A DNA stretch of 64,000 nucleotides from the human T2T-CHM13v2.0 reference genome, Homo sapiens (GCF_009914755.1 NC_060947.1); one strand, 5' to 3'; counted from the first letter of the stretch, positions 38,043 through 59,834 are shown. Numbers and translations: made by a program. The notes: generated by a model from the letters alone, not told the origin.

Positions 38043-41636
<3,594 letters not shown>

Positions 41637-41924
41637 GTGTTATAGAAGCAGGTCCTGACAGGGCCAGTAGCTAAAAACAGTAGTGGCCACGTGTTGTGTG
41701 GTGACTAAGTCATTCCAGAGTAAAATAAAGAACCCTGGAGAAAGGCAAGTTCATGATCTCAGCCTGAAGCCTGGTCTAAAGAGAGAAGTTTATTTGATAT
41801 TATTTATATTAAAATTAGATACTTCTGGGAACAATTTCTACTGGTAAGCGAATATCCATTTTCTCCAATTTGAAGAAATTAATGACTACTTTAGATCCCT
41901 CCTAGTAGAGAGGAATTGGTAGAA

Positions 41925-41941
41925 TAAGAGGGAGAGAGAGG

Positions 41942-41982
<41 letters not shown>

Positions 41983-41999
41983 GGAGAAAGAGAGAGAGA

Positions 42000-42055
<56 letters not shown>

Positions 42056-42072
42056 AAGAGAGAGAGAGAGGG
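41925..42072. repeat. Compound microsatellite (GA)n(TG)n(GA)n
   Basis: Directly visible. Confidence 0.95.
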
Positions 42073-45000
42073 ACACCTTGGTGGCCATTTAGTGTAACTC
42101 ATTTCCTTTTGCAGGTGAACCTAGTGAGGGCAGAGGAAAGGAAAGTCTTGCCTGAGGTTACACAGTGTGGAGTCAAGACCAACACCCTGGCCTTCTGGTG
42201 CCCAGATTAATTCAGTGACTATATCATGCTGCTTTTTAGCTAATAATTTTATGTACAAATTTTCTGTGCTCCAAATTAGTCACAACCATCTGAGTTTCCC
42301 AGGATTGGTGACTCCTGGAGAATATCTCCTGATAAGGGGATACATATGGTCATAAGATTTACTGTACCTTTCATAATCAATACTGATTACTCCCCCTCAT
42401 TAATGACTTCTGCTTTCAGCAAGAGTAGGGCACCTCCCCAGTTCTGTCAGTTCCCTGACAACTATAAATGACAATCAAGGTACTCTCTTATCTCCACCTG
42501 ACTTGCATCACTCTCCAGCCTTGGGAGCTCTGGGCAGCTTACTACACAGATGTTGCTATGGTTGTGTTTGCCTGACTACCTGCCAATTTGGTTAATATAG
42601 GCAAATAAACCTACGCTCTCTGCCTTTTGCTCTGAGAGGGATTTGTCTGGAGTTAATTGAAATCAAGAGCATTGAATAGTCTGAATAAACATATATTGTA
42701 TACAAGGGGCAATTAAATCAACCTGAAAAGTAATCTAAAGTGATGGTTAATATATATTAATATAAGCAAGAGTCTGTGGTGTTATCACATGTCTGAAGTG
42801 CTCATTGGAAGGCCATTTTTTGGACTCTAAAATGACCCATGTTTGTAAAATCAATGGGATTGCCATCTGGTTGATTTCATTCCGGTTAGTTTGGCCAAAT
42901 ACCATTAACCAGAAAACAATCCATCTGACTGGGGTCATTTCTAATTGCTCTGACAGAATTGATTCATTGAGGACTTTTTCAGCCATAGAAATAGAGTTGT
43001 TTTTGTATGGTTTTGGTATTTAGGAATTTGGAAGACTTTTTCCTCTATAAAGGGTTCAAAATTTCAATTTTCTAAAAAAAAGAAAAAAGAAAAAAACCCA
43101 CAAATCTGCCTAAAGGCAGAAGGTTTATAATATAATATGTCACATATTACTTGTATAATGAAACCACTAGACACTTTGAAAATTATCTTCTCCTTCTCAA
43201 GTCCTGCATCATCTTGGGGGTGACTTTGATATCTACATCCCTTTCCACCTAGAACATCCTGTGACTCCCAGCACTTACAGGGGCCTATTCAAATGAGGGA
43301 CCCTGAAATCTACCTGAAATGGAGCAGGTGCTCTTTTTTTTGGCCTAGCACAGTACCTGATGGGACGCATTGCTGGGGTGAATGAAACAGTTAAAGAGAG
43401 TAAAAAAGTCCTACCCTTCCCAAATTTTCTATAGGCACAGTGCCAACTTCTAAATAATCAATGTGAACATAAGTGTCTGAGCATGCTTATGTGACTGGAA
43501 GAATGGGAAATGAAGCAAACAGCATGCTTAGACTGGCTGAGACTGTGAAGTCCAGGGTATTAGAATGAGTGTTTAAGGCTAGCCACACTTTCGTGGCTAC
43601 CATGACCCCTCTGAACCTTGCAGAGGGTGGGCAGGAGGCTGCACATAACTGCAAATAGAAGAGAAAAGGAGGAGGGAATCAGAAAATAGTCAGTAAATAG
43701 CATTAGAATGAACTAGAAACAATTGTAATAACTGCCACTCACTAAGTTTCAGCCCATGTGCTCAGTACTTTCCCATATGTTATCTGATTTCCTCCCCGTA
43801 ATATGTCTGTGAGAGAGACGTTGTCTCCATTTTATGCTGTGGAAACCAGGGCTCAAGTTGGTACAGAACTTGACAATATTCCCACAGTAGTACAAGGCAC
43901 TCAAACCCTGCTTTCTCTGTGTTCAGAGTGATAACTCCCTTTTAACCACTACACTATTAGCTGGAAGAAGAGTCTAGAAACATACACAGCCACCTGTGAA
44001 GGATCAGGGCCAAAGTAGCTTCCAGGATGCACTTTGGTCTGTTCCTAGGGAACTGGAGAGAAGATTTGTTTACCTATTGGGCAGGAGACCTGTGGGAGCA
44101 GGATTAGCTTGGGCTATGACTAGGGCTAGACACACAGGGTGGGACCAGGCCAATAATGAACACAAACAGCTAGCACCGAGGAGAGCTCCAGGCTTGCTTC
44201 TCCTCAATGGGGCAAAGCTGAACTTTGCAAAGCTGCTGGCTTTCTCATCTGCCGAAGGAGCCTCCCCAAGTCAAGTAGTCTATTCCGCAGCGTGGCTGGG
44301 TGTTATGTGCTGCTGCTCCTGCTAGAACCTCAGAAGTGTGAGCAGTGCGTCAAGATGAGGGACCAGGCTTCTAAGCTATAGCCCAGCTAAGCCCCCCAGT
44401 GCCAATCCCGCCCTCAATTCTTGAGCAGTGGAAACAGCAGTGGCAGTTATGAAAACAAGCAGCCTTTCTTGCTCATCTTGACATTGAGTTACAGAGCACA
44501 TCATTATTTTAGACAGAATCAGTTAACATCTGTCTTTCCTGGCCCTTATTTAACCTGTTCTAGTTATGAAGCCTCTCCATGTTTCCCCCTCTGTAACTAC
44601 TGTAAACGATGCAAAAGAGGAATGAGAGATAGAGACAGAGAGAAAGAGGGAAGGAGAATTAATTTACCACTGGGTAAAATGAAAATGTACTGAAGTGTAA
44701 TGGAATTTCATTAACTTCGGAAACGATGATGAATGCTGTCCAAATAATTCTTACTAATGCATAATTCACAGCTGAAAATAGAGCCAAATTCTCCTAAAAA
44801 GCACATCCATTTATGCCCCAAATTAATTTGGTATGTTATTCAGGATGGTTGACAGGATAAAAGATCTACTATGAAATGTAATCATCTATTAAGATAGGGA
44901 ATCTATGAGTCTTTCTGGTTTAGTAGATGATGGTAGCTGATAACAAGTGGCATCTTGAGAGGCAGACACCCACAGTCCTCATCCTCATAATTTGAATCTC

Positions 45001-45469
45001 CCCAAAGACATCATTTCAGACATAACCACAGAGAAGTTTGGATGATCTTTGAGATCTCCATAGCAACCATGGCCCAATTCATATATATATCCCAAAAGCA
45101 AATTAAAATCTGTTTCAAAAGATTCAACTGGGGTCAGGAAAAGGCCCATACTTTTGCTGACTGACAATATCATTATTAATTAATTGATCAATATTATATA
45201 TGTATGTAGTATATAAATAATATAGACCAGATATTATATACATTTACATATAATCAGATTGAGAGATTTTAAAATATCTTTCCCACTTTGTGTAAAATAG
45301 TCTATCCTATTCCACAAACTCTCAGTGACATTCATCACTTAATGTCTCAAGACTATGAGCTTTTAAATAATCTCTTCATAAAAACCCATATATGCTTTTT
45401 GTATACTCTGGAGAGTGGTAATGGGAGAGAGACCTTTTTACCTTTAGATCTGACACAGACCCCACCTGT

Positions 45470-48400
45470 GGTTGGCAGAGAGAGAAGACTACTATTAAGT
45501 GGGAGGCTAGCCATTGGCCCAGCTTCCACCAATGAGAATCTGTAGATTGAGAGGTCAGTCAACACCATACAAGCACCATGGCTCTTCCCACCCATGGGCC
45601 CATTCAGCCATTAGAGAGGACTTTGGTCAGACATGTGAATAGTGTAGTCAGGGGTGACTTCTGCAACCCACTGAACTCCTTCCCTAGGGCAGGATGCATT
45701 GGGTTAAAGTGGAAGTGGTATGAGGAAGCACAGATGTTCCAGGGTGACCCTTATTGCTTCTAATGCCCTTAATCTATGACATGAGGTACTTTGATGAAAT
45801 TCGAGCATGCTGGCTGCTGACATAGAGGTTCTGATTAAGTAGGAGGGCAGCCATTAACCAGGTTTCACCAGTGGGAAACTTTAGTAGCGAGGACATCAAT
45901 GCCTTGCAATGGAGGCATCATGGCTCCTTCCTCCCAAAGGTTCCTTTAGCCACTCAGAGAGCACTTTCTGCAGACATGTGAATAGTAATGTTAGGAATTA
46001 GTTCTGCAACCCTCTGATCTCCTTCCCCTGGGTAGAGGGCAGGGTATGGATGTGGAGGTGTCATGTGGGGAGCTTTACTTTCTAGGAACAACCCTGTTCC
46101 TCTTAATGGCTCTACTGTAATGATTTGGGGTCCTGGGGTGTGAACAAGTACACAGATTGCTGACACAGAATCTGTGATTAAGTAGGAGGGCTGCCATTGG
46201 TCATCTTCTACCAATAGGAAACCTTAGAGGAGCCATCTATGCCTCACAATAGAGGCATAGATGGCTCCTCCCTCTCATGAATCCCTTCAACTGATTAGAG
46301 AGAATCTTGCACTGAAATGTGAATAGTAATATATAGGTAATGTATTAATAATAGTATTGGTAATAGAAGTGATGGCCTCGGCAACCCTCTAAAGTCCTTC
46401 CCTTAGGGAGGGTACTATGTGTGGAAGTGCCGATATAATAGGGGGAGCACTAACTTCTGGGCTACCCCTGATACTTTTGAAAGGTCCAACCGTATGATTT
46501 GGGGTTCTAGGAGTCAAACGCATTGGCTAGTCATACAGTGGCTTTGATTAAATAGGAGTGCAGCCACTGGACAGCTTCCATTAATGGGCAACCTTAGTAG
46601 AGAGGACGTCAGGACCTCATGATGGAGGCATCGTGGCTCCTTCCTCCGAAGGGGCCCTTCAACTACTCAGAGAACAGGTTCTGCAGATGTGTAAATAGTA
46701 ATGTCAGGGATGAGTTTTGCAACCCCCTGACCTCCTTCCCCTAGGAAGCGTGCAGTGTATGGATGTGGAGAAGTCATGGGAGGGAGAGAACACTAATTTC
46801 TAGGGCCACCCATGTTTCTTTTAATGGTTCAACCCTTTATTTCGGAATCTGAGGTGTTAAGCACCTTGTGCTGTTACAGAGGATGTCATTAAGAAGGACG
46901 GCAGCCATTGGCCCACCTTCCACCAATGGGAAGCTTTAGCTAGAGAGGATATTATGGCTCACAATGGAGACATTATGGTTTTTCCCTCCCTTGGGTCCCC
47001 TCAGCCTCTGAGAGAAACTTGTGCTGAAATGTCCTTAGGAGAAGAACTTGAGAGGGCTCTAGAAGTCATCACTTCTATTACTAGTAGTATTACTAATACA
47101 TTATTATTTACATTTCAGCAGAAGTTTCTCTCAGAGGCTGAGGGGACCCAAGGAAGGGAGGAGCCATTATGTCTCTATTGTGAGGTGTAATGTCCCCTCT
47201 AGCTAAAGCTTCCCATTGGTGGAAGGTGGGCCAATGGCTGCCCTCCTTCTTAATGACATCCTCTGTACCAGTAGCCAGAGTGCTTCTTTAACACCCCAGA
47301 ACCCCAAATCATAGTGTCAGGTCATTAAAAACAATAGGGTTGGCCCTATAAAGTAGTGCTCCCCCCATGACACCTCTACATTCATACACTGCACTCTACC
47401 CAGGAGGAGGAGATCAGAGGGTTGCAGAACTCATCCTTGGCATTATTACTAGAATATCTGCACAAGGTGATCTCTGAGTGGCTGAAGGGAGCCTGGAGGG
47501 AGGAACCATGATGTCTCCATTATGAGGTATTGATGTCCTCTCTACTAAGATTTCCCATTGGTGAAAGCTGGCCAATTGTTGCTTTCCTACTTTACCAAGG
47601 CCACCGTATGAGCAGACAATGTGCATGACTTCTTCCTCCCAGAACTCCAAATCATAGGGTTGGACCATTCAAGGGTGTGGGGTGGCCCCAGAAAGTAGTA
47701 CTCTCCATATGATATCTGCATGGCAAAACACTGCAAAGTCCTTCCTAGGGGAAGGACTTGAGAGTGTTGCAGAGTTTATCATTTCTATTACTAACACTAT
47801 CACTACTACAGCACCAATATATTACTATTTAAATATCATCACAAAGTACTTTTTGAGTGGCTGAAGACACCCTTGGGAGGGAGGAGCCATGATGCCTCTA
47901 TTGTGACGCATTGATGATCTCTCTACTAAGGATTCCCATTGGTGGGAGCTGGCCAATGGCAGCCCTCCTACTTAATCACAGCTTCTGTGTCAGCGGCCAA
48001 TGTGCTTGTGTTACCACCCTAGGACCCCAAATCAGGATAGAGCCATTAAGAGGAATAGAGGTGACCCTAGAATGCAATCCTTTCACTATGACACCTCCAC
48101 ATTCATACCCTGCACTCTAACCTAGGGGAAGGAGATTAGAGGGTTGCAGAACTCATTCCTAACATGACAATTCACACATCTGCACAAGGTGCTCTCTGAG
48201 TAGCTAGAGGCACTCTTAGGAGGGAAGAACTATGCTGCCTCCATTGTGAGGCATTGGTATCTTCTCTACTAAGGTTTCCCCATTAGTGAGAGCTGTCCAG
48301 TGTCTGCACTTCCACTTAACCAAGGCATCTGTGTCAGCAGCCAGTGTGCTCAATTCCCACCCCAGAACCCCAAGTCTCAGGGTCAGGTCGCTAAAAAGTA

Positions 48401-49390
48401 TTGAGATGGCCTTAAAATATGGTGCTCCCCATATAATATCTTAATAAAGGGGACATCAATGCCTCACAATGGAGGCATTGTGGCTCCTCCCTCTGGTGGG
48501 TCCCCTTAGCCTTTCATTGATAATATTGTGCTGAAATGTGAATAGTATTGTGTTAGTAATAGAAGTGATCACTTTTGCAACTCTCTCAAGTACTTTTCTC
48601 AGGTGGGTGCAGTGGGTGGAGGTGCAGATGTCATATAAGGCCACTCCTCTACCTTTACTGGTCTTGCCCTATGACCTAGAGTTCTGTGGTGAAAATCAAG
48701 CACATTGGCTAGTCAGAAAAAAACCTTGGTTAAGCAGGAGGATGGCTATTGGCCAGCTTCCACTAATGGGAAACCTCAGTAAAGAGGACATCAATGCCTC
48801 ACAGTGGGGGCATCATGGCTCACAGACGATCCCTTCAGTCACACAGAGAGCACATTGTGCAGACAAGTAATTAGTAATGTCAGGGATGACTTCTGAAACC
48901 CTCTGATGTCCTTTTCCTGGGTACAATGCTGTGTGTATAGGTCAAGGTGTCACGGAGAGAGAATTACTTTTAGGGCTATCTCGTTAAAAAATAAAATAAA
49001 AAAAGACTTGACCCTATCGTATGAGGTGCTGGGTGATAAGCCAGCACATTGACTGCTGTTACAGAGGATGTCATTAAGAAGGAAGTCAGCCATTGGGCCA
49101 CCTTCCACCAATGAGAAACCTTAATTAGATGCCCCACAGTGGAGGCACCATGTCTTCTCCCTCCTATAGGTCCCTTCAGCCAGTTAGAGAGCTGAAATGT
49201 GAATAGCAATGTAGTAGTAATATAAGTAATGACTTCTTCAACCATCTCAGGACCTTCCTGCAGGGCATGGTGCAGTGTGTGGAGACAGAGATGTCATTGG
49301 GGGAGTAATAGCTTCTAGGGCCACATGGGTCTCTTCAGCCAGTTAGAGAGAATCTTGTGATAACATGTGAGTAGTAATGTCAGGAAATGT
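45470..49390. repeat. Diverged array of ~340-380 bp units (about 12-13 full or partial copies), with the block 47033-~48440 in inverted orientation
   Basis: Anchor TTAAGTAGGAGGGCAGCCATTGG-like at 45495, 45835, 46178, 46548, 46889 (+); reverse complement near 47250, 47590, 47972, 48316; + again at 48730, 49074. Confidence 0.9.
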
Positions 49391-49981
49391 GTGCCTCTCT
49401 CTGAACAGCTTCCTTTAGGGCAGAAGTACCCCTACAGAAGGCTGTTTTCACCATGAGTTCACTAAAGTCTCTCTTGATCCCATTTTCTCTCTCTCATTCC
49501 CAACTGTCCCAACCTACTCTTGTGGTGTCACAGACTCCTCACATCACATTAACCTGGTAACTTTTGTTAAACACTCATCCTTGCCCCTCTTCCCAGACCT
49601 AGACATTCATGAGTATTCACCTTGAGACACATCATTTACCCTATTATCCTGCATATTTTTCTAAGGCATATCTCTGATTGAGTTTTCCATTCTTCAGAAC
49701 TTTTGAGAAGTGCTGAGTGATTGCAAAGGAGCCCAGCCTAGCTCCTTAGCAGGCATTCAGGACCTTGTAAGATTTGTCACTTGTTCCCCTCCAGTCTCAT
49801 TTACCTACCATGGCTCCTTCCCATCATTTCGGCTCCAGGCACTTTACTCAGGCCTCAGTGGAGGAACTACAGTTCTCCCTCTACCGGAGGTGTTGATTCC
49901 TTCATCTCCACCAAGACAAATGCCACTTACCTTTCAAATTTGGGTCCATTATCATTTTTGAAGCCTTTTTTCACCCCCTAG

Positions 49982-50739
<758 letters not shown>

Positions 50740-51894
50740 CTAGTTTAAATGATCCCCTAGTTTAAATGATCCCTTTTGCTGCTAATCTGAATTGAGACCC
50801 TGAGGCAAAGCTGGATCTTTGTCTTACTGCTGGACTAGGTTACTTGCTTAGTAACTTTATCTTTTGCCTTTTTTCTTTTTTTTTTACTTTATTTAAAATT
50901 TGTCTGGATTGGATGAATCCTTGGAAGCCATCTCCAATTCTCGTTGGAGGAAAAACAATCAATAGTAAAGAAATCATCTTTCTTGGAGAGTTCTACCCCT
51001 AAGCCCTAGCTTGGTGACTCTACCCTGCTGCTTTTCCTACGTGCCCCATTGACTGCATCTCCCATCACCTTGTTCTCTTCCTGCTGCTTCTTATGGGCCT
51101 TGATTGACATGAGATGTAGCTGCTTGCCTGGTCAGTGGGTGGTAATCTTCTGGAATGAGCCTCACTACAAATGTGGGATTCTGATGTTTTCATCAGACTC
51201 TTCTTCAGTACCTGAGCTGTCCCAGGGAGTGAGTTTGCATTTATTCCATGGTCCCGTCTTCACTGCAATATTGTGTCCTACTTGACCTACTATGACCTGG
51301 TCTGAACTATGACATTAAGTGGAGCACAGCTAGGTTGTATATGAATATATTTCAGTCATTGAATACTTTACAAAGTAGAAGAAGCATGTTCATGTATAAG
51401 CACAAAAACTGATACAATAATTGTTCACCACAAAATTTTTCCAGGATTTTAGATTCACAAGCTCACTTACCCTTTTGTTCATAAAAAGTCTGAACAGGCA
51501 CTAGGGAATACTGCCTCTGTTTCATAGAATCATTAGAGGCCTATTGTTTATTTTGGTCTTTCATTAGGCCCAGTGGCCAACACATATCACTCTTATTTAA
51601 GAGGTGTAACAGCAATAGAAAAATGTGTGAAGACTTCAGTTAGTTTAATTTCTGACTAAAGTTGATGTTTCTCCATGCTGTGAAAACTCTTGTATTTTTT
51701 TTAAAAACACTCACTACTTTTATTTTTTATTTCTTTTTTAGAGGCAGAGTCTTTCTCTGTCACCCAGGCTGGAGTGCAGTGGTGCATAGCTCACTGCAAC
51801 CTCAAACTCCTGGGCACAAGCGATCCTCCTGCCTCAGCCTCCAGAGTAGCTAGGACTCTAGGCACATGCCACCATTCATGGCTATTATTTTTAG

Positions 51895-52014
<120 letters not shown>

Positions 52015-53959
52015 TAGCCAACACCCACCACTTTTTACCTCCTTACCTAACCTATAAAGCATTGTTGCTTTCTCTTTCACACATCACTGCCCATTGCTGC
52101 AACACTATAAACCCAGCCTTTTTTCCTTTACCTGCAAAAGGAAGACCCTTTAATTGCTTACCTCTTAAAAAAAAAAAAAAAAAAAAAGGATCCATACATT
52201 GCACAGACCTTCTAGAGATTCCCTTGGGTAATGCTGATTTTATTTTGTTTGTTGATTATTCAGACATAAAGAGTAAGACCAAAAATTGTCAAATAGGATA
52301 TGCTGTCACACTCCTAAATTTACTCTTAAGGTTGGGCGTGGTGGCCCACGCCTGTAATCCCAGGACTTTGGGAGGCTAAGGCGGGTGGATCACTTGAGGT
52401 CAGGAGTTCCGGACCAGCCTGGCCAACATGGTGAAACCCTGTCTCTACTAAAAATACAAAAATTAACCGGGCATGCTGGCCCGTGCCTGTAGTTCCAGCT
52501 ACTTGGGAGCCTGAGGCAGGAGAATTGCTTGAACCTGGGAGGCGGAGGTTGCAGTGAGCTGAGTCACGCCACTGCACTCTAGCCTAAGTGACAGAGTGAG
52601 ACTCCATCTCAAAAGAAAAAAAATTACTCTTAAAAGGAAAACTTCTCACAGAAATTAAATCAGTTTAGATAGTTTAATTGATTACATAGATTTATTAACT
52701 GGCAAAAAGTAAAATAATAAATACTTATGCTGATACTAAGTACATGGTTTTAGGTTAGTCTGACTTCAAAATGCCTTGAAACCAAGAGGTTTTCTGACCT
52801 TGACAGAAACACCTATAAAAATTGACACATTGAAGAAGTCTTGGATGTTTTCAGATGCTGTTAACTTAATTGCTGTAGTAAAAGTGGGGCATCGTTCAAA
52901 GCACAAGGACCCAGAAGCTTGTGATAAAACCTTAGCTGACTACTAAGCTAAATATGCAGTTTTCACCAAGAAAATTAGCCCTGTAATCACTCAGAAAAAA
53001 GGCTCTTTAGAATAATTCAATGAGATTGTTGTTAACCGTCAGAGATTGGCCTCTTTTTGAAAACAAAGATTTTGGAAAAAACTTTGAAGACTCATTGTAC
53101 AAAAATAATATTGAAGACCTTAAGATGGCTAACTGGTAGCACCAAGTCTATTAAAAATGGAATTCATTAGCCCGGCGTGGTGGCACACACCTGTAGTCCC
53201 AGCTACTCAGGAGGCTGAGGCAGGAGAATCGCTTGAACCTGGAGGCGGAGGTTGCAGTGACCCGCGATCACCTGGTGACAGAGTGAGACTCCGTCTCAAA
53301 AAAAAAAAAAAAATGGAATTCAGCAAAAATTCTTCATGGCATTATCCAGAACAGGAGAGGTAAGTTGATAAGTTGGCCACAATATTAAACTGATATTGGT
53401 GGGGTAATTTTAGGGGTATTGTCAAAGGTGTTTCCAAAACATGTCCTACCTGCTAACAACATGGTCCTGCTTAACCTGTAAAGATGGGGCACAGACAGGA
53501 ACCAAAGCCTTGAGGGCCCTTTGAACACCTCCAGATGGACTTCATACAAATGCCTCCTTGATGGGCTGATACATATGCCCGGTTATTGTTTATTTTCAGA
53601 ATGGGTTTAAACTTTTTCTGTCAGAGAGCCATGGTCCTATATTTGTTTGCTAGGGGTGCCAGAATCTAGCATCACAAACTGGAGGGTGGGAGGGGGAAGA
53701 TTTAAAACTACCATCCTTGGCCAGGCGTGGTGGTGGACGCCTGTAATCCCAGCTACTCCCGAGGCTGAGCCAGGAGAATTGCTTGAACTCAGGATGGGAG
53801 GTTGCAGTGAGCCAAGATCATGCCACTGCACTCCAGCCTGGGCGACAGAGTGAGACTCTGTCTCAAAAAATAAAATAAAATAAAATAAAATAAAATAAAA
53901 TAAAACTATCATCCTTTAAGTGGCTCATGTCTGCTTGAGAAGGATGCTCAGAAGTGTCC

Positions 53960-54326
53960 AAAATGACACAAACACAGATTATTCAAGAGAACTTGTTTAA
54001 ACAACAGAGATCGATTGCCTCACAGTTCTGGAGCATAGAAGTCTGAAATCAAGGTGTTGGCAGGGTTGGTTCTTTCTGTTCTAGGTCCCTCTACCCTGGG
54101 CTTGTAGACGGCTGTCCTCTGCGTTTCTTCATATCAATTTCCCTTTATGTGTGCCTGTCTTTGTGCCCAAATTTCCTCTTTATATAAGAATTAGGGGCCA
54201 CCCTAATAACCTCATTTTAACTAATTACCTCTACAAAGACCATAACTCCAAATAAGGTCACATTCTCAGGTACTGGAATTAGGCTTCAACATGTAAATTC
54301 TGAAAGGATGCAATTCAACCCATAAC
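53960..54326 (-). mobile_element. MLT1 (MaLR) LTR
   Basis: CTCACAGTTCTGGAG...AAGTCTGAAATCAAGGTGTTGGCAGG...AAATAAGGTCACATTC...ATTCAACCCATAACA. Confidence 0.85.
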
Positions 54327-54588
54327 AGGCCATTGCCATAACAAAAAATGAAATCTTGATCTCATTTTTCCAACTTGGGGAATTCCATCTTCTCTCTTTA
54401 GTGACAGGAAACTCAATTTTTACTGGGACTGTGATTAAGGAGCTCTGTAAAGTTCTGTCTTTTACCCAGAGACAGCACTGTTCTTATTGTCTACAGGCCT
54501 CATAAAAAGAAGAGAGCTAATGCAATTCTAAAACTAAAACTAAAATTAGCAAAGCTCTCAGAAATCCTACAACTTCCATGGCCTAAAG

Positions 54589-55166
54589 CAGGGGTGTCCA
54601 ATCTTTTGGCTTCCCTGGGCCACATTGGAAGAAGAACTCTCTAGGGCCACACATAAAATACACTAACACCAATGATAGCTGATAAGTAAAAAAAAAAATC
54701 ACAAAAAATCTCATAATATTTTAAGAAAGTTTATGAATTTGTGTTAGACCTCTGTATTAGTCTGTTTTCACGCTGCTGATAAAAACATACCCAAGACTGG
54801 GCAATTTGCAAAAGAAAGAGGTTTAATGGACTTACAGTTCCATGTGACTGGGGTGGCCTCACAATCATGGGGAAGGCAAGGAGGAGCAGTCACGTCTTAC
54901 ATGGATGGCAGCAGGCAAAGAGAGAGCATGCGTGCAGGGAAATCACCCTTATAAAACCATCAGATCTCATGAGACTTATTCACTATCATGAGAACAGCAT
55001 GGGAAAGACCTGCCCCCATGATTCAGTTACTTCCCACTGGGTCCCTCCGACAACACGTGGGAATTCAAGATGAGATCTGGGTGGGGACACAGTCAAACCA
55101 CATCAGCTGCATTCAAAGCTGTCCTGGGCCACATGTAATCCACAGACCAGAGGCTGGACAAGCTTG
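54589..55166 (+). mobile_element. MER30 (hAT) DNA transposon with 8-bp TSD GCCTAAAG, split by THE1
   Basis: CAGGGGTGTCCAATCTTTTGGCTTCCC start, GGACAAGCTTG end; TSD at 54581-54588 and 55167-55174. Confidence 0.9.
54753..55105 (-). mobile_element. THE1 solo LTR
   Basis: TGTATTAGTCTGTTTTCACGCTGCTGATAAA...CAAACCACATCA, about 350 bp with TG..CA ends. Confidence 0.92.
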
Positions 55167-56059
55167 GCCTAAAGTATTAGATTAACTTTAATGTCTACAA
55201 GATCACCCCTGTCTGGGACACACAAGTTATCTAATGAATTAATAATAGGCCACCCTATGTATTTGGTAATTTCACCCTCAGTCTTAGAGTCTGTTTGATT
55301 GTAAGTAGACATGATCAATTAACGTAAGTGACCCATACCATAACTCCAGCTCTGTTACCAAGCCTCTGCATGATCTGCAACCTGGAGGTTTAGTCTTCCG
55401 GAGAAGACACTGGAGAAAAACTGCTCTTGAACCTTGAAGGTGAGGACCTTATCAGGTACTATTAACAATTGACACAGCAGTAAAACTCCAAGATGTTGGT
55501 GCTTGAATTCATGTTTCCCAGTGAAAAGGATATGCATAGTCTCATCCTGATTACTGGACATCCCTTCCGTCTGGAGACCTTAAACTTTGGATTCTTAGAA
55601 ATCTTCCAGAAATTGGCTGGGTGTGGCGGCTCACGCTTGGAGGCTGAGGCGGGTAGATGATGAGGTCAGGAGTTCAAGACCAGCCTAACCAAGATGATGA
55701 AACCCCATATCTACTAAAAATACAAAAATTAGCTGGGTGTTGTGGCAGGCACCTGTAATCCCAGCTACTCAGGAGGCTGAGGCAGGGAATTGCTTGAACC
55801 CGGGAGGCAGAGGTTGCAGTGAGCCTAGATCTCACCACTGCACTCCAGCCTGGGTGACAGAGCAAGACTCCGTCTCAAAAATAAAATAAAATAAAATAAA
55901 AATAAAATAAAAATCCTCCAGAAATTGCTGGCTTCAGAGGGTGAATAGCTCCCACCCAATATGACAGAACAAGATTAATTTTATGATTCTTCATCCCCCT
56001 TTTCAGTTCCTTTACTCTTCTACTAACTTTGCTTATTATTCTACTTAGATGTCTTCTAG

Positions 56060-56269
<210 letters not shown>

Positions 56270-56986
56270 TAAAAAATTATTTGTAGAAATGGGGTCTCAC
56301 TTTGTTGCCCAGGCTGCATCCTGTTATTTTTGTCTCCTTATGGTCTCCCACCACTTAATTTTTTCCCATAACCATGGCTCTGAAGTTAACTGATTGCTAC
56401 CTATGTCACCCCTACTCCTGCCTAACCCTGCTGACAAAAATATAATAGCTCTTCCTTTAAACACTTCAGGAGGTAGATTCCCTTTTATAGGTCTCTTATG
56501 GTACTCGTTTCCCTCACAGCATTAATCTCAATCTTTAGTTTTGTAAAAATTGGACCTGACCTCACATCAACAAAATGCTTCTGCTGAAGTCATTATAATC
56601 CTATCAGCAAGGTGTAGTCAATCAGGAGTGGACACTAACATTGGGAATATCTGGGTGCAATGATCAGTTTGTTCTCTTCAACCTTCTTTGCAGGAGCTGT
56701 TTAATTATACTAAAATTATACTAAAAGGACTTGTCTATCTCAGAAGCTACAAATTGGCTCACTCCTTTTGCAGTAAATGATAGTTATACTCCAAATATAA
56801 TCTGTGCTCCACTCAGGTCTTACTGCTTATATATCTCCTTACATACCTTTTTAATATAAGAAGACCTTATACTTCCTGCCACACACCACCTTATCCTGTG
56901 TTTTTAGGGTAATCGTTAGAGATTTAAAACTACCCTCCTTTCTGTGACTATGTGTCCCAGAGAACACCCAGAAGCCTCCAAACTGA

Positions 56987-57334
<348 letters not shown>

Positions 57335-57785
57335 TAGCCTGGATTCCCTCTTTATGCTTGCACTGGAAACTGCAAATCCCATAGTGGGTGTAATACAACT
57401 AGAACAGTGGTCTGAAACTTGTCTCTGACACTAGTAAATGTCATAAATGACACACTCCTGCTCTGAAAGCCCAAGAAACTACTCAGAATTCATTAACTAG
57501 AGTTGTCATGGGCAATCACATAGCCCTTAATTTCCTCTTCCAACCAAGAGGGAATTTGTGTTGTAGCAAGTATTACTCGTTTCACCTATGTAAGTACTAC
57601 AGGGAAAGCAGAACTGTTTGTGAGTATGCTAAAAGAAAAAGCCACCTGGTTGTCTCAGATATACCTGGTTGCATTCTGGGATACATTTTCATTGCCTGGG
57701 TTTCATAATCTAGGCCCATAACTTTGAGACTTTGAGACCTTTTACCGACATCTGTTTCTTTTCCCTTTTTTTTTTTTTTTTTTGA

Positions 57786-57959
<174 letters not shown>

Positions 57960-58760
57960 TAGTGGAGACAGGGTCTTGCCATGTTGGCCAGGCTTGTCTC
58001 AAACTCCTGACCTCAAGTGATTGGCCTGCCTCAGCCTCCCAAAGTGCTGGGGTTACAGGTGTGAACCACCACGCCTGGCCATGATATCCATTTCTGATAA
58101 CTGCTTTTGTTAATTACAATTAAGATTGCTGATGCTATCTTCCCAGAGTCCTTTTATATTGAATTTTTTACCATACAGCCATTTTCATATCAGATGCAGC
58201 AAGCTGGAGGGACTAACCTCAGTCCAAGTAGAGACTACATTCTCTAAGCCAGCTCCTGATCCGCAATAGAGAAATCTGGGTATCATGGAGTAACATCCAG
58301 CAGCCTCACTTTGTCTGCCTTTGACCAAAAGAAGCAGAAAGAAACAGCCCCTCACATCTGGGAACTAGTGAGATGCTCACAGCTAGGCCTTAGCATTGCT
58401 ACCAGCTGGCCTGGCACTTACAGCTAGACCAAGTTATTCTCCTATTGGATATTAAGGATCTTACAGAATATCAGTGCCAGATAAGTTGACTCTAAGATCA
58501 TGATAAAGTAAGACAAAACAAGGCCATTTCATAATTAAGTCTAAGCACAGACAAAAACAAGATCACTGTGCAGCCCACAAAATGCCAAACATCTCCTTCT
58601 CCTGGATAAGATGAGTGACTGCTGCTTTCTTTCCAATTACTGCTTCAGTCTTGCTCAGTTTGTCCTCCCTAGAGATAGGATTTTCTGATATACCCAATGA
58701 TAAACTTGTCCTCACTTTCTGATAGCACTGAATCTACAGCGAACCCTTTCTTCTTCTTCT

Positions 58761-59416
<656 letters not shown>

Positions 59417-59834
59417 TTAAACCCTCCTGAATCACCCAACCAAAGCCCAAATCCTGTAATATGTCTTTTCTAACTCCCTCTTACTGAGGTGCCCCATGGT
59501 GTGTGTTTTGCCCTGTTGCAACAAGTAATAAGCTCAACTTGTTCAGCTACAGGTGTGTTCCTGGTAGTCTTTGGCTGGAAGGCAATGAAACTAGAGAACT
59601 CTGATGGGTGCCAAGGGCTGCTAATCAGATTCATCTCCAAGGCACTGAAGGAAATGTTTCGGAAAGCTAGACCTCTTCAAGAGGACTAACTTAAGGCACC
59701 TTACAGTTTTCTAGCTGGCTTGAAGGGTGTGACCTACTTGGATGACCTTAGCTCACTGGCAGATAACAAGAGGAAGAAGTCTATTGTTGGGTTTTGATAA
59801 GATTTGGAGGGCACTAAGGGAAGGATAATGTTCT

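What the first reader, a model, noticed from the sequence alone, without database searches (positions are those of the whole stretch)
45470..49390. Unexplained ~350-bp dimeric repeat array with mixed orientation
Seen: about 12-13 diverged units with anchor spacings 340, 343, 370, 341 (+), about 340, 382, 344 (-) and 344 (+). Two unit types largely alternate (A: GCAGA(C/T)..GTGAATAGTAATGT(T/C)AGG; B: GCTGAAATGTGAATAG plus an AT-rich TAGTA tract), suggesting a ~710-bp higher-order dimer. The orientation is + / - / +. No Alu interrupts these 3.9 kb although the flanks are Alu-rich. I do not recognise it as any SINE, LINE, LTR or satellite family and see no consistent ORF. Inference: an old locus-specific macrosatellite-like array, possibly a lncRNA repeat domain or a multimeric protein-binding platform.
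Basis: seen in the sequence. Interest (0 to 1): 0.75.

Follow-up and report, generated by a model that had tools for sequence, protein, structure and literature searches.

The report
Old decaying repeat array, inverted triplication
This is a real 4-kb run of about twelve worn 345-base repeats on the human X chromosome, whose middle part is a back-to-front copy of its left part; it is likely an old DNA-copying accident now decaying without a function.

Summary
The array is real (window 45461-49425). It has 14 pieces of a ~345-bp unit in +/-/+ order, with alternating A and B types (B clade 95/95). The minus block mirrors the left block unit by unit (about 77% identical; the central ~165 bp are 90% identical around a 77-bp spacer). 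The right block is a third, direct copy (75%). That is the shape of a small inverted triplication. Two DNA and four motif searches found no other copy of the unit in the genome; one outside motif hit could not be checked. The unit is absent around five sister copies of the old endogenous retrovirus that starts 1.9 kb downstream. There is no coding signal and no credible Rfam hit, CpGs are as depleted as in the flanks, and the Alu-free gap is unremarkable. Each unit carries two small palindromes. These are slightly better kept than a uniform-rate model predicts, but base-pair covariation does not beat controls. Best reading: an ancient locus-specific tandem expansion, rearranged by replication template switching and now decaying. 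It is not a macrosatellite. Dfam, other mammals and expression data could not be checked.

The parts
45461..45800 (+). u1, most diverged unit (neither clearly A nor B); homology clear from ~45494
45801..46145 (+). u2, type A unit; mirror partner r1
   Evidence: K2P 0.245 to r1
46146..46513 (+). u3, type B unit with 34-bp AT-rich insert; mirror partner r2
46227..46270 (.). perfect 19-bp-stem, 6-nt-loop palindrome in u3 (the imperfect hairpin of the other units, here fully complementary)
   Evidence: z -8.7
46514..46859 (+). u4, type A unit; mirror partner r3
46860..47033 (+). u5, type B unit cut at junction 1; left arm of the central palindrome
   Evidence: (I2)
47033..47109 (.). 77-bp spacer of the central palindrome (junction 1; it is the continuation of unit r4)
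47032..47286 (-). r4, partial type B unit; right arm of the central palindrome, 90% identical to u5
   Evidence: K2P 0.112
47287..47629 (-). r3, type A unit
47630..48009 (-). r2, type B unit
48010..48353 (-). r1, type A unit
48354..48443 (-). r0, 90-bp unit-end fragment up to junction 2; closest to the end of r3 (75%), not of u1 (61%)
48438..48695 (+). u6, 5'-truncated type B unit; first unit of the right-hand direct copy (matches left block from 46224)
48696..49039 (+). u7, type A unit
49040..49324 (+). u8, type B unit, sister to u5/r4
49325..49425 (+). u9, ~100-bp internal unit fragment ending the array

Best explanation
The array is a ~345-bp non-coding repeat in alternating A/B types whose minus-strand block is a mirror copy of the left block and whose right block is a third, direct copy; it likely arose by an ancient local tandem expansion followed by a replication template-switch (inverted triplication) and is likely decaying without function. 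Shown: unit structure, A/B types, mirror pairing, three copies of 46224-47032, no second locus found, no coding signal. Inferred steps: (1) a single-copy sequence duplicated into A and B and then as an AB dimer; (2) the fork folded back at junction 1 (77-bp spacer), copied about 1.4 kb backwards, and returned to the forward strand inside u3; a direct duplication followed by a separate foldback fits equally well; (3) the ~165 bp nearest the centre were later re-homogenised by conversion between the arms, and small palindromes in single units (u3, u6, r2) were tidied by hairpin-templated repair; (4) otherwise the copies drifted apart. With a recalled neutral rate the mirror pairs (K2P 0.25-0.29) date to roughly 60-100 million years and the central arms (0.11) to roughly 30-45 million years.
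For: The unconstrained ML tree already pairs u2/r1, u3/r2, u4/r3, u5/r4. The full triplication constraint costs only 0.8 log units (AU p 0.44). Trees grouping by orientation, by neighbours or as a simple inversion are rejected (AU p below 1e-4). The right block aligns best to the left block from u3 (75.1%) and to the middle block from r2 (75.3%), against 71-72% in shifted registers starting at u1, u2 or r0/r1. The tree is star-like: most inner branches 0.004-0.05 (u5/r4 stem 0.12), end branches mostly 0.10-0.38. Rate variation along the unit is weak (gamma shape 4.9). Stops occur in 71 of 72 unit-frames, frameshifting indels are common, and there is no consistent codon periodicity (1 of 6 windows p 0.02). 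No Pfam hit in six frames of 40-54 kb; no Rfam hit at gathering score; no tRNA. CpG o/e is 0.094 against 0.083-0.109 in three flanks. The 77-bp spacer fits the 40-80 bp described for ODIRA junctions (PMC10766186, passages), and DUP/IN/DUP events of this size are described (PMC13334657, abstract and passages).
Against: There are 65 invariant columns of 340, against 48.6 +/- 6.4 in 200 uniform-rate simulations (1 of 200 reached it; window-variance p 0.015; best single window p 0.135), and the best-kept windows are the two palindromes. Some constraint or templated repair is therefore possible. Fragment r0 does not match the end of u1 as the one-event model predicts (61%, the worst of 9 ends). Junction 2 is not a tight foldback. 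Mirror pairs (K2P 0.25-0.29) are closer than u6 and u7 are to their partners (0.33-0.44; u8 is 0.21-0.30), which needs two events or later conversion. Lack of function is not shown: no expression, chromatin or cross-species data were available.
Confidence: 0.6

Rival explanations
1. The unit is a piece of an old or low-copy transposable element (L1 5' end, ERV/MaLR LTR or internal part) that was tandemly amplified here, and it is already covered by a Dfam family. The architecture story would be unchanged, but the unit would be ordinary TE debris.
For: An old ERV remnant starts 1.9 kb downstream (internal homology from 51338; Integrase_H2C2 E 0.0012, below cut-off) and no second LTR copy was found in the window. 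The genome DNA search is a loose first look that scored only 1 candidate, and a profile search of the genome was not available.
Against: Motif searches recover many local units but almost nothing elsewhere: 4 of 4 matches in the array, 6 of 7, 6 of 7. In one search, 7 of 26 matches are in the array; the other 19 show no homology beyond the motif. No unit homology in 11 loci around ERV sister copies, including 6 kb upstream of 5 copies (best E 0.31); in 2 of those 5 an LTR match shows that the fetched DNA reaches the element's 5' end. No hit beyond the selecting motif in 272 kb of non-array DNA held.
Confidence: 0.15
2. The array is a multimerised cis-regulatory element between the divergent MAP7D3 and ADGRG4 genes (about 20 kb from each start); each unit would offer an inverted pair of CCAAT boxes (NF-Y) and a CACAAT (SOX-type) site, for example in germ cells.
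For: CCAAT occurs 23 times (5.8/kb against 2.0/kb window-wide) and CACAAT 10 times (2.5 against 0.66/kb). The windows holding them are the best conserved. The motif names are recalled.
Against: Motif excess follows trivially from repetition. The most conserved window is not significant (p 0.135). The hub's RefSeq table lists no functional element here, and the DNA is CpG-depleted like its flanks. The two papers read that name both genes do not mention the interval in the passages seen.
Confidence: 0.15
3. The array is a current or extinct hairpin-RNA locus: either a cluster of miRNA-like hairpins (one per unit, like X-linked germline clusters) or one long fold-back transcript that would yield dsRNA/endo-siRNAs.
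For: The central 431 nt fold into one ~170-bp stem (-324 kcal/mol, z -30). A 25-pair unit hairpin can be drawn on the unit's reverse strand, with 76.8% of cells paired against 42-47% when slid. Six of 12 units reach z of -2.3 or lower on at least one strand in a fixed window; the minimum of 60 background windows is -2.85. Arm mismatches at the centre favour G-U on the + strand, 9 against 2 (p 0.065).
Against: Covariation is not clearly above shuffles (31/500; pairs changed on both sides 62/500). RNAalifold keeps only a 9-pair core with a non-favourable covariation term. The loop is 6 nt. The other 6 of 12 units show no excess folding. Units face both ways, so one transcript could not read all in the same sense. 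Outer arms show no G-U bias (87 against 72, p 0.27). No credible Rfam match (best: mir-5879, 28.8 bits against cut-off 97). Six arm 16-mers were found in 0 papers.
Confidence: 0.1

Closest known systems
Small inverted triplication / DUP-TRP/INV-DUP / ODIRA-type rearrangement (PMC13334657, PMC10766186)
   Same: Direct copy, inverted copy, direct copy; one fold-back junction with a 77-bp spacer; about 0.8 kb triplicated.
   Different: Described as new or pathogenic events in yeast, tumours and patients; this one is an old, ~25% diverged structure in the reference genome that lies inside a pre-existing tandem array. Junction 2 is not a tight fold-back and r0 does not fit a single event.
Macrosatellites such as DXZ4, D4Z4, CT47 (features recalled)
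   Same: Locus-specific tandem array on X with higher-order periodicity.
   Different: Unit 0.35 kb rather than several kb; 57-89% rather than near-identical copies; CpG-poor; mixed orientation; no concerted evolution apart from the central ~165 bp.
X-linked miR-506-type germline miRNA clusters (recalled)
   Same: X-linked local multiplication of a hairpin-bearing unit.
   Different: No Rfam match, no clear covariation, 6-nt loop, hairpin lost in half of the units, units on both strands.
Interstitial satellite arrays curated in T2T-CHM13 (Hoyt et al., bioRxiv 10.1101/2021.07.12.451456)
   Same: Same class of object: an interstitial array outside classic satellite families.
   Different: The passages seen name 13 such arrays without coordinates; the supplementary table that would show whether this one is among them could not be opened.

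Membership tests
Inverted triplication (SIT / DUP-TRP/INV-DUP / ODIRA-like) | Three copies of one segment with the central copy inverted | tested here: met
   46224-47032 has an inverted copy (~77%) and a direct copy (75.1%); triplication tree not rejected
Inverted triplication (SIT / DUP-TRP/INV-DUP / ODIRA-like) | Fold-back junction with a short spacer (40-80 bp in ODIRA) | tested here: met
   Junction 1: 77 nt between arms (I2)
Inverted triplication (SIT / DUP-TRP/INV-DUP / ODIRA-like) | 5-6 bp pre-existing inverted repeat or microhomology at the junctions | tested here: inconclusive
   Read by eye: at most 2-4 bp overlaps; divergence hides the original state
Inverted triplication (SIT / DUP-TRP/INV-DUP / ODIRA-like) | Second junction consistent with the same single event | tested here: not met
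   About 0.5 kb asymmetry; r0 matches the end of u1 worst of 9 ends; fits secondary erosion or a second event
Inverted triplication (SIT / DUP-TRP/INV-DUP / ODIRA-like) | Replication origin within the amplified segment (ODIRA proper) | not testable with these tools
   No origin data
Macrosatellite (DXZ4/D4Z4 type) | Multi-kb, near-identical head-to-tail units (recalled) | tested here: not met
   340-380 bp units, 57-89% identity, mixed orientation
Macrosatellite (DXZ4/D4Z4 type) | CpG-rich units (recalled) | tested here: not met
   CpG o/e 0.094
Macrosatellite (DXZ4/D4Z4 type) | Copy-number polymorphism between people | not testable with these tools
   One assembly only
Dispersed transposable element family | Related copies at other loci | tested here: not met
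   DNA; motifs; one outside hit unchecked; very diverged sources would be missed
Dispersed transposable element family | Match to a Dfam/Repbase model | not testable with these tools
Dispersed transposable element family | Terminal repeats or target-site duplications around a unit | not tested
   Unit ends are too eroded and the register is arbitrary
Internal tandem array of the neighbouring ERV family | Same unit present in sister proviruses | tested here: not met
   0 of 5 sister copies with 6 kb upstream, 0 of 11 loci in all
miRNA cluster | Match to a known precursor family | tested here: not met
miRNA cluster | Conserved long hairpin with compensatory changes | tested here: inconclusive
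miRNA cluster | Precise 5' small-RNA reads from both arms | not testable with these tools
   No expression data
Hairpin RNA / endo-siRNA locus | Long inverted repeat able to fold into dsRNA | tested here: met
Hairpin RNA / endo-siRNA locus | Transcription through both arms and Dicer-dependent siRNAs | not testable with these tools
   No expression data

The most novel reading that the evidence does not exclude
An unannotated X-linked germline hairpin-RNA locus: the fossil inverted triplication made a 2.7-kb fold-back whose central arms have been kept 90% identical and whose units carry miRNA-sized hairpins, yielding endo-siRNAs or miRNAs in testis or oocytes of humans or other mammals.
Probability: 0.08. 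Interest if true: 0.7.

Novelty: new member of a known kind. Interest (0 to 1): 0.25.

Why it matters
On the best reading it matters little for function. It is a tidy fossil: a small inverted triplication of the kind studied in yeast, tumours and patients, apparently kept for tens of millions of years, showing how a palindrome is defused by divergence while its centre is still converted. It also shows that old single-locus arrays escape TRF. It would matter more if the array proved to be transcribed or to regulate MAP7D3, which has brain eQTL colocalisation at an Alzheimer's XWAS locus (PMC11385320, passages).

Tried and rejected
Coding or exon repeat: rejected. tRNA/tmRNA: none. Part of the downstream ERV: not supported; the search was swamped by an Alu in the query and gave one useful ERV copy. 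MLT1-type LTR origin, suggested by a recalled resemblance: one MLT1-like copy among the held loci (L075; family name recalled) gave no profile hit. Outside motif hit L087 matches only over the motif and looks like an L1 5' end (recognised from memory). Alu exclusion as a sign of constraint: not significant. Simple inversion, neighbour-wise or orientation-wise evolution: rejected. Viral contigs: 0 matches to one motif. A profile search of the whole human genome was not available, so very diverged sources remain open. Literature: no paper in the held library holds MAP7D3+ADGRG4+repeat, Xq26.3+inverted repeat+MAP7D3 or the six arm motifs. Searches gave listings only, none evidently on this array; one search gave 0 papers; one search gave 3 listed, of which 2 were read as passages without mention of it. 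The published version of the T2T repeat paper was not held, and the preprint's supplements were not seen.

Full report
Observation. The array exists as described. A profile of five units finds 14 pieces between 45461 and 49425 with E-values from 3e-114 to 6e-12, and no other significant hit in the window. The order is u1-u5 on +, r4-r0 on -, u6-u9 on +. No further unit lies in the 1 kb upstream or 0.57 kb downstream. Direct-repeat spacings of 340-343, 370-381 and 713 bp recur; TRF does not see the array. Twelve of the 14 pieces (all but fragments r0 and u9) were used for trees; pairwise identity is 57-89%. B units carry an AT-rich insert and form a clade with support 95/95. Mean K2P is 0.34 within A, 0.33 within B and 0.44 between types, so the dimer is real. 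The Alu-free state is not informative: among 42 Alu hits there are three other gaps over 4.1 kb, and the chance for one given stretch is about 0.04.

Architecture. The minus block is a mirror of the left block: u2/r1, u3/r2, u4/r3 and u5/r4. Identity is 72-89% per 80 columns from 45799 to 46893, dipping to 65% at the AT-rich insert, and 90-91% over the last 140 bases before the centre. The arms are separated by 77 nt. The right block aligns best to the left block from 46224 (75.1%) and to the middle block from r2 (75.3%), against 71-72% in shifted registers starting at u1, u2 or r0/r1. The free ML tree equals the mirror and AB-constrained trees. The full triplication constraint costs 0.8 log units (AU p 0.44). 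Grouping by orientation, by neighbours or as a simple inversion is rejected (AU p 5e-40, 1e-20, 4e-5). This is the DUP/IN/DUP shape of small inverted triplications (PMC13334657, abstract and passages), and the spacer fits the 40-80 bp given for ODIRA junctions (PMC10766186, passages). Against a single clean event: r0 should copy the end of u1 but matches it worst of nine ends (61%; best r3, 75%); junction 2 is offset by about 0.5 kb; and mirror pairs (K2P 0.245-0.292) are closer than u6 and u7 are to their partners (0.33-0.44), while u8 is at 0.21-0.30. A direct duplication plus a later fold-back, or one event plus arm conversion and a lost unit, both fit.

Age. The tree is star-like, which points to an early burst followed by stasis. 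Local yardsticks: the processed-pseudogene fragment beside the array is 83-90% identical to its relatives, and the ERV interior is 61-74% identical to sister copies; the array's copies fall between. Converting with a recalled neutral rate gives roughly 60-100 million years for the mirror pairs and 30-45 million years for the central arms. These dates are inference.

Is the unit found elsewhere? Two DNA searches of the genome returned only this locus; each scored a single candidate, so they are weak on their own. Four motif searches are more telling; 7 of 26 matches in the array, and all 19 others lack homology beyond the motif; 4 of 4; 6 of 7, the outside hit limited to the motif; 6 of 7, the outside hit on C18 unchecked. 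Since each motif recovers 4-7 local units, a dispersed family of similar age should have shown; the motifs were derived from these units, which biases this, and a much more diverged source would be missed. An old ERV remnant lies downstream on +: interior homology starts at 51338, there is an integrase zinc-finger match at 53316-53630 (E 0.0012), and an LTR-like stretch lies at about 58420-59590. No second LTR copy was found in the window. The unit is absent from 11 loci around sister copies, including 6 kb upstream of five of them. Dfam could not be queried.

Does it do anything? No coding signal: no Pfam family in six frames of 40-54 kb, the longest stop-free frame is 111 codons, stops and frameshifts are everywhere. 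No Rfam family at its cut-off and no tRNA. CpG o/e is 0.094, like the flanks. Rate variation along the unit is weak (gamma 4.9), but invariant columns exceed a uniform model (65 of 340 against 48.6 +/- 6.4; 1 of 200 simulations), and the best-kept windows are the inverted CCAAT pair and the hairpin. The hairpin is perfect in u3 (19 bp, z -8.7), has z of -2.3 or lower in 6 of 12 units and is unremarkable in the other 6. A 25-pair version is 76.8% paired but shows no clear covariation against shuffles, and RNAalifold keeps only a 9-pair core. Hairpin-templated repair would explain single perfected palindromes without selection; this is inference from established quasi-palindrome mutagenesis. The central palindrome would fold into a ~170-bp stem if transcribed (z -30), with a weak G-U bias to the + strand (9 against 2, p 0.065; outer arms 87 against 72, p 0.27). 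No expression data were available, and the hub's annotation shows no transcript here.

Literature. Ten searches found no description of this array in the held library. Passages of PMC12236931 and PMC11385320 name both flanking genes but not the interval. The T2T repeat preprint (passages) reports 13 newly curated interstitial arrays; its supplements were not seen and may list this one.

Verdict. The array is real, old and apparently single-locus. It has the shape of an inverted triplication but fails the single-event test at junction 2, and it is not a macrosatellite. Most likely it is a neutral fossil (0.6). Rivals: amplified TE fragment (0.15), regulatory cluster (0.15), hairpin-RNA locus (0.1). 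Interest 0.25.

Noticed in passing
window 51338-59590 (+): Old class I ERV remnant riddled with Alus: interior homology to copies on C2, C3, C4, C9, C13 (61-74%), integrase zinc-finger match at 53316-53630, env-like stretch near 57525-57730, LTR-like stretch about 58420-59590 split by two Alus (resembles the MER34/MER39 group, recalled). No 5' LTR found in the window.
   Followed up: partly
window 49987-50734 (-): Processed-pseudogene fragment (3' UTR with poly-A end) split by an Alu at 50298-50644; 83-90% identical to loci on C14, C19 and C23. The L069 translation looks like PABPN1 (name recalled). Not in the hub's gene table.
   Followed up: partly
L069 (G000:C23:69852161-69855245): Near full-length processed copy of the PABPN1-like gene with stops and frameshifts.
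   Followed up: no
window 41627-50318: Largest Alu-free gap of the window (8.7 kb); it extends 3.8 kb left of the array, so the array does not explain it.
   Followed up: partly
window 47734-47761 (unit r2): A second palindrome is perfected in r2 (10-bp stem, helped by a 3-bp insertion absent from other units), like the u3 hairpin; suggests repeated hairpin-templated mutation.
   Followed up: partly
window 50740-50773: Exact 17-bp tandem duplication right at the end of the pseudogene fragment.
   Followed up: no
window 53930-55200: Nested MaLR-like LTR pieces and a MER-like DNA element inside the ERV (types recognised from memory; shared with L044).
   Followed up: no
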